Positions 31,567-61,080 of a stretch of 64,000 nt of DNA are shown here, piece by piece. Where the stretch lies: contig OX597814.1 in assembly GCA_951406725.2 (NCBI GenBank), positions 88,164,001-88,228,000 on the forward strand, written 5' to 3'. Both the position numbers and the translations under genes were made by a program. Origin of the DNA: Octopus vulgaris (Eukaryota). The notes below the pieces were generated by a model that worked only from the letters and a program-made list of their open reading frames with translations, was not told where the DNA came from and searched no databases. Numbering within the stretch: position 1 is the stretch's first letter; every line of letters starts with the position of its first letter.

Positions 31567-32861
31567 TACGAGGGACGTTCAATAAGTAATGTCTCTGACC
31601 CACTTGCAGTTGTTTGATCTAGCTGAAATTTTGCATGTGCAATTATTTATATCTCTATAGAGTAAGTGGCAAATTACAGCTCTGAATTAATTGTGGTGTC
31701 TGATCTACAGGTGTTTGAACCGAGTCAAGTGTGAAATGGAGCCTGTTGAGTGTCGAGCAGTGATCCGGTTTTTGTATTTGAAAGGACGCACACCACGGGA
31801 GACATTTGATGAAATGAAAGTAACTTATGATGATGATGCCCCATCATATGACCTTATAAAACGCTGGCATCGTGAATTCAAACATGGTCGGAACTCTGTG
31901 GAAACAGCTCCCAGATCTGGTCGCCCCTTTCTGCCATTGATGAGGCATCTGTCCGTCAAGTTGAGGCTGCCATTTTCGAAGATCGACGCATAACTATTCG
32001 CCAAATAGCCTATGAGGTCAAGATTAGTACCGGGTCTGTGGAAACTATCATTCATGACCATTTGCATATGCAAAAGATGTCTGCCAGATGGATTCCCAGG
32101 TTGCTCACGCCTTTCCAGAAGCAAGAACGCGTCGAGTGCTCGAGGGTGAATTTGGAGATGTGCCAAGAAGATGAGTCAAAATTTTTCAAAAGACTGATTA
32201 CACAGGATGAAACCTGGGTCCATCACGATGATCCAGAGACCAAAGCCCAGTCAATGCAGTGGAAGCACCGTGACTCACCCCCTCCAAAGAAGGCAAGGGT
32301 GCAGCCCTCCGCTGGCAAGGTCATGCTCACAGTCTTCTGGGACCAGGACGGAGTAGTGATGACAGATTTTCTGGCAAAGGGTACCACAATTGCAGGAGCC
32401 TATTATGCTTCACTTTTGAGGAAATTAAGAGAAGCTATAAAAATCAAGAGGCGGGGCAAGATCAGCAAAGGCATCCTCCTCCTGCAGGACAACGCTCCGG
32501 TCCACAACTCGCTTGTCGCCAGATCAGAAGCACAGGCGTATGGCTATGAACTCCTCCCCATCCCCCCTACTCTCCTGACCTTGCACCCTCTGATTTTCAC
32601 CTCTTCCCAATCATGAAGTTGTTTTTGAAAGGAAAGCGTTTCCCAGATGATGCAGCCTTGATTTCTGAAGTCACGTTGAGGTTGGAGGACCAAGCTGGGT
32701 TCTTCTACAAAAACGGTCTCCAGAGCCGCATCAAACGATGGGAGAAATGCGTAACTCTGAGTGGTTCCTATGTTGAAAAAGACTAATAACTGTGCCAAGT
32801 TTCCTTGCTCTACTGCTATGGGAAGTGGGTCAGGGGCATTACTTATTGAACGCCCCTCGTA
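31567..32861 (+). mobile_element. Full-length mariner (DD34D) transposon
   Basis: About 40 bp TIRs TACGAGGGACGTTCAATAAGTAATGTCTCTGACCCACTT / AAGTGGGTCAGGGGCATTACTTATTGAACGCCCCTCGTA, TA ends, about 1.3 kb. Confidence 0.95.
31736..32786 (+). pseudogene. Mariner transposase with two frameshifts
   Basis: MEPVECRAVIRFLYLKG, WIPRLL, ITQDETWVHH, LLQDNAPVH, PYSPDLAPSDF, WEKCVTLSGSYVEKD*; frameshifts near 31930 and 32560. Confidence 0.9.
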
Positions 32862-35337: not shown

Positions 35338-35374
35338 TTGTAAATATAATATATGACAATTATTCGGTAGCTTT

Positions 35375-35435
35375 GATAAAACTCCGAGTTTCGAATGTCG
35401 GGGCGGAAACCCGCGCCGGCATCTCTTCAGTTATC
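35375..35435 (-). ncRNA. Type I hammerhead ribozyme (P1 left arm)
   Basis: Reverse complement GATAA-CTGAAGA-GATGCCGG(CGCGGGTTTCCGCC)CCGACATTC-GAAA-CTCGGAG-TT-TTATC; stem I GATAA/TTATC, stem III ACT/AGT, GUU cleavage triplet. Confidence 0.7.
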
Positions 35436-35767
35436 GGGCCATCGAAAAAAATGCTACGAAAATGACCGTTAAAACAAAGGGAAATTACTGTGTGATTGAC
35501 CGTTATTAAGACAAAAGAGTTATTAGAATAACCGCTAAGTAAGGGTAGGGAGTAAAGGTAAGGCAATAAAAATGTTCATAGTAGTCGCGTATGCGCGCAT
35601 ATCCGTGGTCATTCTAATACCTCTTTTGTTTTAATAACGGTCAATCACACAGTAATTTCCCTTTGTTTTAACGGTCACTTTCATAACATATTTTTCGATG
35701 GCCCGATAACTGAATAGATGAATAGATGCCGGCGTGGGTTTCCACCCCGACATCCGAAAGTCCGAGT

Positions 35768-35769: not shown

Positions 35770-35857
<88 letters not shown>

Positions 35858-35890
35858 AGGATGAAAAGGAACACACGAGTTGATATATAT

Positions 35891-36370
35891 GAAAAAATAA
35901 GTCAAAATAGAAAATGCTAAAATAATTTTATAAAGAACATTTCAGTACCGGTTTCGGTCATTTTGAGACCTTTTCAACTGTAACGATTAAATAATTAAAT
36001 TTAGAAAAATTAAAATAAATGTTTTTTTAAAGGAATATTTGTATAGTGTTCAAATATAAGTGGCATTTTCCTTGTTTATGCCTTGCTCTGTCTCTCTTGT
36101 TCACACTTGTTCGAGGTCGTTGATTCACAACGATTCACAACGACCTCGAACCCACAAGTGTGAACAAGAGAGACAGAGCAAGGCAGAAACAAGGAAAATG
36201 CCACTTATATTTGAACACTATACAAATATTCCTTTAAAAAAAACATTTCTTTTAATTTTTCTAAATTTAATTATTTAATCGTTACAGTTGAAAAGGTCTC
36301 AAAATGACTGAAACCGGTACTGAAATGTTCTTTATAAAATTATTTTAGCATTTCCTATTTTGACTTATTT

Positions 36371-36374
<4 letters not shown>
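35891..36374. mobile_element. Near-perfect palindromic element P2 (about 235 bp arms, about 15 nt loop)
   Basis: GAAAAAATAAGTCAAAATAG... / ...CTATTTTGACTTATTTTTTC; few mismatches; centre about 36132; flanked by TA repeats. Confidence 0.85.
36282..36325 (+). ncRNA. Minimal hammerhead ribozyme, U3-A8 core variant (mirror copy on minus strand at 35941-35983)
   Basis: CAG-TTGAAAA-GGTC-TCAAAAT-GAC(T/C)-GAAA-CCGG-TA-CTG; stem I CAG/CTG, stem II GGTC/GACC, palindromic stem III ACCGGT, GUA triplet. Confidence 0.6.
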
Positions 36375-36428
<54 letters not shown>

Positions 36429-37104: not shown

Positions 37105-37193
<89 letters not shown>

Positions 37194-37230
37194 GAATGGA
37201 GTTGAACGACGAATTAACAAAATTCCTTTA

Positions 37231-37313
37231 TTTTCGACATATGTTTCGAAGGCTGCATATTCCTAATTGCGAAGGAATAAGGAGTATATTATGCCGCTTT
37301 CTCATCAGGAAAA
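37231..37313 (-). ncRNA. Type I hammerhead ribozyme (P3 left arm, mirror copy)
   Basis: Reverse complement of the 37568-37650 motif with an intact core. Confidence 0.75.
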
Positions 37314-37450
37314 GCAAGGAACTTATGTCAACATCAAGATGCACAAAAAACTTTTAGATGACTGCTCAAACGGAGCCCATAGTGAAAATGAGTGTCGTTT
37401 GAACCCTTGAACCTTTAGAACCTTCTAGATTCTTCTACATCCAACCATTT

Positions 37451-37469
37451 TGACGTCACTCCTTATAAA
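37451..37469 (+). promoter_or_regulatory. CRE (TGACGTCA) plus TATAAA in the P3 spacer, putative Pol II promoter
   Basis: TGACGTCA at 37451-37458 and TATAAA at 37464-37469, just upstream of the right arm. Confidence 0.4.
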
Positions 37470-37567
37470 GGAATTTTTTAAAGAGATACTCATTTTCGCT
37501 ATGGGCTCCGTGTGAGCAGTCATCTAAAAGTTTTTTGTGCATCTTCATGTTGACATAAGTTCCTTGC

Positions 37568-37650
37568 TTTTCCTGATGAGAAAGCGGCATAATATACTCC
37601 TTATTCCTTCGCAATTAGGAATATACAGCCTTCGAAACATATGTCGAAAA
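37568..37650 (+). ncRNA. Type I hammerhead ribozyme (P3 right arm)
   Basis: TTTTC-CTGATGA(37573-79)-G AAAGCGGC...ACAGCCTT C-GAAA(37634-37)-CATAT-GTC(37643-45)-GAAAA; stem I extends as TTCCTT/AAGGAA beyond an internal loop; palindromic stem III ACATATGT. Confidence 0.8.
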
Positions 37651-37830
37651 TAAAGGAATTTTGTTAATTCGTCGTTCAACTCCATTCTTTCATATATTTA
37701 TATTTAAAAAAAAACATACAAATTTCCACACGAAAGCACGTAACTTCAAACGTGTCTTCTTTGATGTGAATTTGCTACCCAGGTATCGATTAACCGAATT
37801 ATCCATAACAAGATAATTCATTCAACTACT

Positions 37831-57112: not shown

Positions 57113-57658
<546 letters not shown>

Positions 57659-57669
57659 CATACGCACAC

Positions 57670-58630
57670 GACTTTGGCATGTAACGACTTTGGCTTAGCT
57701 ATCAGCCTTAAGAAGACCAACATCATGGGCCAGGCTACATCGGACATCCCAAACATACTAATTGGAGACCACAGATTACAAGAGGTGGAGAAGTTTACCT
57801 ATCTGGGCTCTACCGTCACCTACAACCTATCCCTTGATGCTGAGCTCAATATACGCATTGGCAAGGCAGCTGCTGCGATGGCCCAACTCTCCAAACGGGC
57901 TTGGGACAACAATAAGCTGACCAAGACCACAAAAATGAAGATCTACCAGGCATGTGTACTCAGCACTCTACTGTATGGAAGCGAGACCTGGACGCTATAC
58001 ACACGCCAAGAGAGTCGCCTAAACATCTTTCACCTGCGCTGCCTCCGAAAAATCCTCCACATCAAATGGCAGAATCATATCCCCAACAAAGATGTCCTCA
58101 GGCAAGCAGGAATACCAAGCATGTTTGCACTCCTCACACAAAGACGTATGAGATGGCTTGGGCATGTTAGCCGTATGAAAGATGGCAGAATCCCCAAGGA
58201 CATACTCTACGGAGAGCTTGCTAGGGGTACTAGGTCTGTGGGTAGACCGATCTTACGTTACAAGGATGTCTGCAAAAGGGATACGAAGGCCTGCAACATC
58301 AACATTAGCGGTTGGGAGGCAGTCGCCGGCAACCGTGGAGAATGGCGACGTACAGTAAAAGAGGGTATACAGAGGAGTGACAGAAAGAGAGAGGAGAAAT
58401 GGAAAGAAAGGAAGAGACATAAACAAGAGACCATGGCACTACAACCAGCCAGGAACAGTCTTCGCTACATTTGCAGTACCTGCCAGAGGGAGTGTTTGTC
58501 CAGGATAGGACTACACAGCCACAGCAAGAAATGTAACAGGAAATAAAATATAACAGCCGGACTAGACCTAGAAAAAAAAAAAAAAAAAAAATGCGCAACT
58601 GTCTCCCGAGACAGAAAGGATGCCAAACAA
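57670..58630 (+). mobile_element. 5'-truncated RTE (BovB-like) LINE with an uninterrupted ORF remnant
   Basis: About 290 codons without a stop to 58546: [56 protein letters not shown]-terminal CSTCQRECLSRIGLHSH; 3' UTR hairpin CTGTCTC-CC-GAGACAG. Confidence 0.9.
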
Positions 58631-59856: not shown

Positions 59857-61080
59857 TACTAGAGTATTAAAGATTTCCCCTGATCAACTTCCCAAGGACT
59901 GCGATAAACGAAACTCGATATAATTATTAGTCCTTCTCTACATAGCCACCACCAACGGCGACACACTTCTCCCATCGCTTTATGCAGTTGTGAAGACCTC
60001 GTCCATAGAAGTCGGTGGCTTGCGCCTGGAGCCAATACTTTATCTCGAAAATAAGTTCATCATCATCTGAAAAGTGCTTTCCCTTCAAAAGAGTCTTCGT
60101 GGTTGGAAAGAGGCGGAAGTCAGATGGTGCGAAGTCGAGAGAGTAAGAGGGATGAGTAAGGATTTCATAGCAACAGAAATGTGCTTTCATCTGGGCAACG
60201 TGCACATTGTGAAGTGTGTTATCTTGGAGGAGGCGGATTCCTTTGGTCAGCATGCCACGCCTCTCTGCTTTGATGGTGTCCCGCAATTTTGACTGCAGAG
60301 AAGCATAATATGCCCCGTTATTTGTGATGCTCTTTGCCATCATCACTACTTAGCGCTGGTCCCAAAAGACTGTGTTGCCTGCTGAGGGTTAGACACGAGC
60401 CTTCTTTGGAGGTGGTGAGTTATCATGCTTTCATTGCTTCGACTGGACTTTAGTCTCAGGATCATAGTGATGGACTCATGTCTCATCATGTGTAATAAGT
60501 CTACCGAAAAAGTCATCGTTTTCTTGGCACATTGCCAAAAGAGCCTGGGAGCAAATGACTCGTTCCTGCTTCTGTAAAGGTGTGAGCATCTAGGGAATCC
60601 ATCGTGCAGACAACTTCCGCATGTGCAAATAGTGGTGAATAATTTTTTCCACGGACCCAGCAATTATCTTCATTTGTTGGGCTAGTTGCTGAATAGTTAT
60701 GCGGCGATCTTGGTGGAATGTGGTCGTGAGGAATAGGAGCAGTTTCCACCGATGTCCGACACATTTGAACTGGAGATGCCAGTGCTTGACTACGTTGTAT
60801 GATGGTGCATCGTCACTATAAACTTATTTCATCTCATCGAAAGCCTGTTTTGGTGTACGACCTTTTAAGTATAAGAACCTGATCACTGATCTGCATTCAA
60901 CTGCCTCCTTTAGAACACCTTAATCCACTTCAGCAGCCATAAAGGACAAACGAATGCTAGTGGAAAGCTGCAATTTACAATGTGACATGTAGAGACATGT
61001 ATGATTATACCTGTCCAACTTCGGTTTCCTGCAATAACCGGAAGTGGGCCAGGGGAAATATGTAATGAACACCCCTCGTA
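59857..61080 (-). mobile_element. Decayed full-length mariner related to 31567-32861
   Basis: TIR TACGAGGGGTGTTCATTACATATTTCCCCTGGCCCACTTCC; EAVECRSVIRFLYLKGRTP, LLQDN, SYSLDFAPSDF, WEKCVAVGGGYVEKD. Confidence 0.85.

What the first reader, a model, noticed from the sequence alone, without database searches (positions are those of the whole stretch)
35941..36325. P2 hammerhead has the compensatory U3-A8 core (UUGAAAA instead of CUGANGA)
Seen: both arms read CAG-TTGAAAA-GGTC-loop-GAC(C/T)-GAAA-CCGG-TA-CTG. Established: C3 and G8 form a Watson-Crick pair in the active hammerhead, and the double change U3/A8 retains activity and occurs naturally. Inference: two core substitutions that exactly restore this tertiary pair argue for selection on catalysis rather than chance, and standard CUGANGA motif searches would miss this family.
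Basis: partly seen in the sequence, partly recalled or inferred. Interest (0 to 1): 0.75.

Follow-up and report, generated by a model that had tools for sequence, protein, structure and literature searches.

The report
Swapped-pair hammerhead in Penelope retroelement fragment
This is a broken, back-to-back end fragment of a common jumping gene (about 2,000 copies) carrying a predicted self-cutting RNA with an already published base-pair swap; related repeats in the same genome use all four standard base pairs at that spot, which likely reflects selection in the parent elements, while this copy is probably inert.

Summary
In detail: both arms carry a minimal type I hammerhead with U3-A8. The arms are one sequence copied twice, a 5'-truncated, inverted 3'-end (pLTR) fragment of a Neptune-type Penelope-like retrotransposon, inserted in (TA)n with a one-sided tail. 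The genome holds 1,995 exact motif matches, 1,985 of them U3-A8. U3-A8 in Penelope hammerheads is published (Cervera 2014; Perreault 2011), so the motif is a new member of a known kind. Two arms prove nothing about selection, but comparison across families supports it. In a scan blind to positions 3/8, 27 of 37 clusters pair Watson-Crick (16.4 expected). C-G, U-A, G-C (6,225 matches) and A-U (113 matches, a related endonuclease-bearing family) all occur, and one copy of this family is a C3-G8 double change. Against strict pairing: a U·G subfamily also amplified. This locus would fold as a ~240-bp hairpin that buries the ribozyme. Cleavage is untested. The scan had already noted U3-A8 and G3-C8 families on other DNA of this genome.

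The parts
35773..35855 (.). (CA)n then (TA)n microsatellite, left flank of the insertion
   Evidence: (TA)n flanks recur at the family's other copies
35856..35883 (-). About 28-nt optional 'tail' on the left arm only; in a long tandem copy the same sequence continues into the start of the next unit's coding region
   Evidence: L113; present in 32 of 87 distinct copies examined; PLE hallmark per PMC8557442 passages
35890..36122 (-). Left arm: inverted, 5'-truncated 3'-end (pLTR) fragment of the Neptune-type element
35943..35980 (-). Minimal type I hammerhead, left copy: core U3-A8 at 35977-35971, stem II G10.1-C11.1, palindrome ACCGGU, predicted cut between 35946 and 35945
36122..36141 (+). Head-to-head junction of the two arms, with a 10-nt tandem duplication
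   Evidence: sequence
36135..36375 (+). Right arm: 5'-truncated 3'-end (pLTR) fragment, ending about 55 nt past the predicted cut, without tail
36285..36322 (+). Minimal type I hammerhead, right copy: core U3-A8 at 36288-36294, stem II closed by G·U, palindrome ACCGGU, predicted cut between 36319 and 36320
36375..36427 (.). (TA)n microsatellite, right flank

Best explanation
The stretch is a head-to-head, 5'-truncated insertion of the 3' end (pLTR) of a high-copy Penelope-like retrotransposon with RT and GIY-YIG domains, and each arm carries the element's minimal hammerhead motif with U3-A8, predicted to cut only as a dimer and likely silent at this locus. Shown: parentage, copy number, insertion anatomy, and Watson-Crick pairing at 3/8 across families. 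Inferred: in tandem full-length source copies two sense hammerheads would pair through the ACCGGU palindrome to form helix III, probably with help from the element's own protein, and cut after UA. Selection on replicating lineages would keep positions 3 and 8 paired while letting the pair's identity change (C-G, U-A, A-U, G-C, with U·G tolerated). Pasted copies such as this one then decay without constraint; here any read-through RNA would fold into a ~240-bp hairpin that buries the motif.
For: Parent: upstream of longer copies lies a continuous 784-aa frame with RVT_1 (E 2.9e-8) and GIY-YIG (E 1.5e-4, 22.4 bits against a cut-off of 22.6; the domain passes in L032), plus a CX4CxxC linker. Anatomy: common 3' end, optional tail in 32 of 87 copies, frequent inverted pairs, (TA)n flanks. 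Copies: 1,995 exact matches, 1,985 U3-A8. Covariation, blind to 3/8: 37 of 44 hits in 1.38 Mb of evenly spaced genome samples are Watson-Crick (27 C-G, 6 U-A, 4 G-C; reversed control 1 hit). Over all 275 held records, 27 of 37 clusters pair (16.4 expected, permutation p 3.5e-5) and 13 of 14 multi-copy clusters (p 5e-4). G3-C8 family: 6,225 matches, 95 of the 100 listed G-C. A3-U8 family: 113 matches, 88 of the 100 listed A-U with N7 varying, GIY-YIG fragments upstream in 5 loci. One copy of this family is C3-G8, with 2 of its 5 differences in 386 bases at exactly 3 and 8; 0.003 doubles expected from single-change counts, at most about 0.07 under looser assumptions. Stem II closing pair is G-C, G·U or A-U in different subfamilies. 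Literature: U3-A8 in Schistosoma Cercyon PLEs and dimer activity of min-HHRs (PMC4209133); protein-assisted cleavage, abolished by C3G or G8C and partly rescued by the double change, in an anole PLE (PMC11167929). Hairpin at this locus about -350 kcal/mol.
Against: No cleavage data for this family. A sister family (1,509 matches) has U3·G8 in 10 of the 100 listed, forming two amplified subfamilies, and most of its subfamilies carry an extra U before the core: a non-Watson-Crick core did replicate. The motif is not significantly more conserved than its flanks between three subfamily majorities (1 of 38 against 21 of 189 variable columns, p 0.085). Families are not independent lineages: collapsed to one lineage per pair type, p is only 0.04, and no C-G family with an endonuclease was available to root the tree. 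10 of 37 clusters are not Watson-Crick (9 single copies, likely decayed or chance, and 1 tie). The monomer is predicted to pair U3 with A17 (probability 0.70), like the inhibitory C3-G17 trap discussed in PMC3884650. Copy ends lie about 55 or 85 nt past the cut, not at it, and ribozyme mutants did not impair insertion in vitro in PMC11167929. The C3-G8 double change is a single copy.
Confidence: 0.8

Rival explanations
1. The 3-8 pair is selected for the folded hammerhead shape (protein binding, RNA packaging or positioning of reverse-transcription start sites), and cleavage itself is incidental or too slow to matter.
For: Low in vitro activity of min-HHRs (PMC4209133); ribozyme mutants leave insertion unchanged and no reads end at the cut (PMC11167929); copy ends do not map to the cut; predicted U3-A17 trap; amplified U3·G8 and extra-U cores.
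Against: The 3-8 pair is reported for the active core conformation and not in minimal ground-state crystals (PMC3884650 passage), so its covariation points to the cleaving fold. Most families found keep a UH cleavage site, though the descriptor demanded this.
Confidence: 0.12
2. U3-A8 is a neutral by-product of AT-biased drift in one ancestral element, inherited by its descendants; the motif is a relic that no longer works.
For: C to T and G to A are both common transitions; all U-A families could descend from one event (no rooted tree); within-family conservation is not significant.
Against: G-C and A-U families each need two transversions from C-G or U-A, and G-C runs against AT bias; mismatched pairs are not the majority state of any multi-copy cluster, one tie aside; N7 varies in the same families; U3-A8 also occurs in Schistosoma Cercyon elements.
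Confidence: 0.05
3. This particular palindrome is a functional locus (a host-used ribozyme pair or a source of hairpin small RNAs).
For: It would form a near-perfect ~240-bp hairpin if transcribed.
Against: It is one of many such inverted insertions; the arms have already diverged by point changes and gaps; the two hammerheads are on opposite strands and cannot form the active dimer in one RNA.
Confidence: 0.03

Closest known systems
Minimal type I hammerheads (min-HHR) in pLTRs of metazoan Penelope-like elements, including the U3-A8 family of Schistosoma mansoni Cercyon elements (Cervera and De la Pena 2014, PMC4209133; read: parts 1-2 of 4 of the main text, supplement parts 1-2 of 3)
   Same: Type I topology, short stem I, G10.1-C11.1, palindromic helix III needing a dimer, position in the pLTR after an RT-EN frame, thousands of truncated copies, pairs on opposite strands 100-700 bp apart, U3-A8 core (about 1,300 hits in S. 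mansoni).
   Different: Here the carrier is a Neptune/Nematis-type element, there is no unpaired base between 9 and 10.1, stem II is 4 bp and the palindrome is 6 nt with A17. Their 56-motif alignment lists no cephalopod and no G3-C8 or A3-U8 core; it does list one U3·G8 (Saccoglossus).
Natural U3-A8 hammerheads (Perreault et al. 2011, PMC3088659; read: passages and section 8)
   Same: First natural C3-G8 to U3-A8 covariation; states that covarying pairs are active in vitro.
   Different: Not PLE-associated minimal dimers; only U3-A8 is named in the text.
PAc hammerhead of the anole Poseidon element (Frangieh et al. 2024, PMC11167929; read: abstract and whole main-text section)
   Same: PLE hammerhead just before the ORF/tail region; tail explained by two internal RT start sites; 3/8 pair tested by engineered C3G/G8C.
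   Different: Poseidon clade, natural C3-G8; cleavage needed the protein and was not needed for insertion in vitro.
Neptune and Nematis EN+ PLEs (Craig et al. 2021, PMC8557442; read: passages)
   Same: C-terminal GIY-YIG, CX2-5CxxC linker, 5' truncation, inverted copies, one-sided tail, (TA)n targets.
   Different: Clade not fixed by an RT tree here. The parent shows an upstream ORF overlapping the RT frame in -1.
Animal non-LTR retrozymes (bioRxiv 10.64898/2026.07.22.740005, passages; PMC7229834, search listing only)
   Same: Type I hammerhead with palindromic helix III, dispersed copies.
   Different: Retrozymes are non-coding head-to-tail arrays; this is an inverted pair derived from a coding element.

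Membership tests
PLE minimal hammerhead (min-HHR) | Catalytic core N3-UGA-N7-N8-A9, GAAA, UH with 3 and 8 complementary | tested here: met
   UUGAAAA / GAAA / UA in both arms
PLE minimal hammerhead (min-HHR) | Short helix I and helix II closed by G10.1-C11.1 | tested here: met
   Helix I 3 bp, extendable past an A·A mismatch; helix II 4 bp, G-C in the left arm and G·U in the right
PLE minimal hammerhead (min-HHR) | Palindromic 15.1-16.1 segment allowing a dimeric helix III | tested here: met
   ACCGGU, duplex -8.3 kcal/mol; the dimer MFE contains it
PLE minimal hammerhead (min-HHR) | Usual unpaired base between 9 and 10.1 (common, not universal) | tested here: not met
   A9 is followed directly by G10.1; at least two motifs in the published alignment also lack it
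PLE minimal hammerhead (min-HHR) | Located in the pLTR of a PLE | tested here: met
   About 0.6-0.7 kb after the RT-EN stop and repeated before the ORF in tandem copy L113
PLE minimal hammerhead (min-HHR) | Self-cleavage as a dimer | not testable with these tools
   Only contigs were available; they cannot show RNA ends
EN+ Penelope-like element, Neptune/Nematis type | RT followed by C-terminal GIY-YIG endonuclease in one frame | tested here: met
   L117 784-aa frame; GIY-YIG above cut-off in L032
EN+ Penelope-like element, Neptune/Nematis type | CX2-5CxxC linker between RT and EN | tested here: met
   CX4CxxC directly before the EN domain
EN+ Penelope-like element, Neptune/Nematis type | 5' truncation, tandem/inverted pLTRs, one-sided 30-40-bp tail, microsatellite targets | tested here: met
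   tail here about 28-30 nt
EN+ Penelope-like element, Neptune/Nematis type | RT phylogeny separating Neptune from Nematis | not tested
   No reference PLE proteins were held; 'Neptune-type' rests on the linker and (TA)n bias
Non-LTR retrozyme | Head-to-tail array of non-coding units, one hammerhead each | tested here: not met
   Inverted pair from a coding parent
Rfam hammerhead families | Score at or above gathering threshold | tested here: not met
   (HH9 20.9 and 16.7 bits against 52)

The most novel reading that the evidence does not exclude
Penelope-type elements of this one genome have sampled all four Watson-Crick pairs, plus a U·G wobble, at the hammerhead's tertiary 3-8 pair, including an A3-U8 family that I did not find in print, and this family itself contains a copy made from a C3-G8 revertant source. 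That natural mutant series would mean that the cleaving conformation is under selection in the element's life cycle in vivo, although cleavage was dispensable for insertion in vitro, and it gives a ready allelic series for finding which step needs it.
Probability: 0.5. Interest if true: 0.55.

Novelty: new member of a known kind. Interest (0 to 1): 0.33.

Why it matters
The motif itself is a known variant in a known setting. Its value is as one state of a natural series. What PLE hammerheads do is an open question (PMC8557442 calls it unclear; PMC11167929 found cleavage unnecessary for insertion in vitro). Repeated compensatory change at a pair that belongs to the active fold is the best available sign that the fold matters in vivo. 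Practically, CUGANGA descriptors and Rfam miss at least about 9,800 exact matches in four families of this genome alone (1,995 + 6,225 + 1,509 + 113), so hammerhead counts and statements of absence in PLE clades need descriptors with free, paired positions 3 and 8.

Tried and rejected
Two arms as independent support: rejected, one duplicated sequence. A hidden C3-G8 sister subfamily of this family: the 16-base pattern gave 6 matches against 5 in the reversed control, and only the known singleton belongs to the family. The singleton's diagnostic differences near the 3' end were shared by few or no other held copies, so a separate source lineage is not shown. Stem II covariation inside the 7-nt-loop subfamilies: not seen (of 30 non-G10.1 copies, 6 A with U11.1, 8 A with C11.1, 16 other); an A-U pair appears only in an older short-loop subfamily seen in 3 held copies, 1 with the stem intact. 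Lower private substitution inside the motif (0.6% against 1.4%) is confounded, because many loci were picked by exact motif match, so it is not used. A second G3-C8 motif with the CCGG palindrome is a single exact match and is not counted as a family. The 18-of-18 family count was assembled by hand and includes families noticed by eye, so the blind counts are the evidence. Expression: no RNA holder listed on record. Four runs guessed to be RNA hold contigs of the 3' end, one crossing the predicted cut, which says nothing on cleavage, strand or level. Contigs of four further runs, labelled as four organisms, were laid on the locus; the family is present in them and no U3 change is among the 40 differences shown, 35 more not shown. 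The EN tree separates three lineages (this family; a U-A/U·G sister; A-U) but has no C-G outgroup, so order of change and number of origins are not inferred. Rfam miRNA-like hits are hairpin artefacts below threshold. Not obtainable: Lunse et al. 2017 (PMC5785218) and Przybilski and Hammann 2007 (PMC1986816); either may already describe natural or engineered G3-C8 and A3-U8. Searches for print on these states: 'hammerhead' with U3-A8 (1 paper), G3-C8 (1 paper, whose G3-C8 passage was not displayed), A3-U8 (0), G3C8/U3A8/A3U8 (0), G8C+C3G+natural (2), octopus+ribozyme (8 papers, 7 listed, none on this by title), covariation terms. Figures and bioRxiv supplements were not visible.

Full report
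Observation. They parse as a minimal type I hammerhead: helix I CAG/CUG, core UUGAAAA, helix II GGUC/GACY with a 7-nt loop, GAAA, CCGG, cut site UA. A strict descriptor finds 2 in the window and none in 200 shuffles. Rfam misses them. The two motifs are the arms of one inverted repeat of about 240 bp that differ by 4 substitutions and 2 gaps, so they count as one observation.

What it is. The arm is a dispersed repeat: 2,620 first-look candidates, the 40 scored about 97-99% identical, in a 2.8-Gb animal genome. I did not determine the organism; the scan's earlier notes call it octopus-like. Copies share a 3' end, vary in 5' truncation and sit mostly in (TA)n. Longer copies lead upstream into RT and GIY-YIG coding sequence; L117 has a continuous 784-aa frame with both domains and a CX4CxxC linker. 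L113 shows the partial tandem layout, with the hammerhead both after the ORF and just before it. A tail of about 28-30 nt is present in 32 of 87 distinct copies examined, and in the window on the left arm only. These are the features given for Neptune/Nematis-type Penelope-like elements in PMC8557442 (passages). The window locus is a head-to-head pair of 5'-truncated pLTR fragments with a 10-nt duplication at the junction.

Within the family. An exact 33-base pattern with positions 3 and 8 free gives 1,995 matches, control 0. Ten differ: 3 C3-A8, 1 G3-A8, 1 C3-G8, 2 U3-G8, 1 U3-U8, 2 U3-C8 (one inverted pair). This uniformity reflects recent copying from U3-A8 sources and is not evidence of selection on copies. 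The C3-G8 copy differs from its subfamily at 5 of 386 bases, 2 of them exactly at 3 and 8, and at 19 of 1,406 over its length, several in a low-complexity tract. From single-change counts 0.003 doubles are expected (upper bound 0.03; 0.07 if all copies were 1% diverged). It is suggestive of a revertant source, but it is one copy, and no C3-G8 sister subfamily was found. Across three subfamily majorities the motif has 1 variable column of 38 against 21 of 189 outside (p 0.085): a trend only.

Across families. I sampled 138 stretches of 10 kb at round-number positions (1.38 Mb) and scanned with a descriptor blind to 3 and 8. Of 44 hits, 27 were C-G, 6 U-A, 4 G-C and 7 unpaired; reversed sequence gave 1. 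Clustering the 217 hits from all 275 held records (random and targeted), with 3 and 8 masked, gave 37 clusters: 27 Watson-Crick against 16.4 expected (p 3.5e-5), and 13 of 14 multi-copy clusters, the other a C-G/G-G tie (p 5e-4). Genome-wide patterns then confirmed a G3-C8 family (6,225 matches; 95 of the 100 listed), whose sampled copies are short (about 190 bp), tailed and (TA)n-flanked, and an A3-U8 family (113 matches; 88 of the 100 listed; N7 is U, A, C or G) with related GIY-YIG sequence upstream in five loci, about 60% identical in DNA to this family's EN. A U-A sister family (1,509 matches) has U3 in all 100 listed and G8 in 10, which fall into two subfamilies. So U·G also replicated, which argues against a strict Watson-Crick requirement but fits a pairing requirement, and it is the expected intermediate between U-A and C-G. 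Families share ancestry; with one lineage per pair type the permutation p is 0.04, and no rooted tree was possible.

How it likely works. Shown: the structure and the covariation. From the literature: min-HHRs of PLEs are inactive as monomers and weakly active as dimers (PMC4209133); an anole PLE hammerhead cleaves only with the element's protein, loses activity with C3G or G8C and partly regains it with both, and is not needed for insertion in vitro (PMC11167929); the C3-G8 pair was seen in the tertiary-stabilised structure and not in minimal crystals (PMC3884650 passage). Inferred: in transcripts of tandem source copies two sense motifs pair through ACCGGU (duplex -8.3 kcal/mol) and cut after UA, probably protein-assisted. 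Copy ends lie about 55 nt (no tail) or 85 nt (tail) beyond the cut, which fits internal RT initiation rather than ends made by the ribozyme. The monomer is predicted to pair U3 with A17 (0.70), which would slow cleavage until dimer or protein remodels it. At this locus the motifs are on opposite strands, and either strand folds into a hairpin of about -350 kcal/mol that pairs the motif with its antisense, so this copy is probably inert.

Comparison and novelty. Natural U3-A8 was reported in 2011 (PMC3088659) and in PLE min-HHRs in 2014, with about 1,300 hits in S. mansoni and mention of opposite-strand pairs 100-700 bp apart (PMC4209133). The finding as posed is therefore a new member of a known kind. 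The published 56-motif alignment has U3-A8 and one U3·G8 but no G3-C8 or A3-U8. My searches found no natural report of these two, but the two most relevant papers could not be read and figures were not visible. The scan has already noted U3-A8 and G3-C8 families in this genome and a retrozyme family with four versions of one key pair; these are unchecked notes and were seen after my own counts. Verdict: real, ordinary in kind, modestly interesting as one state of a natural compensatory series. Interest 0.33.

Noticed in passing
G000:C13:524777-524809 (L111): Single copy of this family with both core changes to C3-G8; 2 of its 5 differences in 386 bases.
   Followed up: yes
L220, L275-L294: A3-U8 hammerhead family with a 2-bp stem II and GAAA tetraloop, CCGG palindrome, after a GIY-YIG frame; 113 exact matches.
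   Followed up: partly
L039, L096, L107, L227-L232, L245-L274: G3-C8 family, 6,225 matches; sampled copies about 190 bp, starting about 20 nt before the hammerhead, with an optional tail of about 58 nt; no coding parent seen in the loci held.
   Followed up: partly
L063, L113:2700-2780, L125, L296-L315: Sister family with 2-bp stem II, an extra U before the core in most subfamilies, and two amplified U3·G8 subfamilies.
   Followed up: partly
L113:5854-5917 and L114, L115, L117, L233: The parent element has an upstream ORF (about 410 aa from its first Met, no Pfam hit) overlapping the RT-EN frame in -1 at a T-TTT-TTA heptamer kept in 5 of 5 copies that cover it; possible programmed frameshift, but no stable downstream structure was predicted.
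   Followed up: partly
L207:2300-4760: Young tandem array of 359-nt units, each with a C3-G8 hammerhead, plus an inverted part: retrozyme-like. Its stem II loop resembles that of a U3-A8 family in L080, L086, L273.
   Followed up: no
window 35340-35765: Neighbouring inverted insertion with a C3-G8 hammerhead at 35430 (-); the other arm (35710, +) is disrupted by a 9-nt duplication in the core.
   Followed up: partly
window 37158-37723: Third inverted insertion with C3-G8 hammerheads at 37308 (-) and 37573 (+), long stem II, CATATG palindrome.
   Followed up: partly
window 21844 (-), 37012 (-), 51265 (-): Further C3-G8 hammerhead motifs of other families; the last two are damaged at or after the cut site.
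   Followed up: no
window 31876-32616, 59927-60349, 57548-58546: Transposase-like (mariner-type by recalled motif) and LINE-type RT-like open frames; not tested against a library.
   Followed up: no
G000:C16:2486383-2486410 (L295): A lone G3-C8 motif with 7-bp stem I and CCGG palindrome; single exact match.
   Followed up: partly
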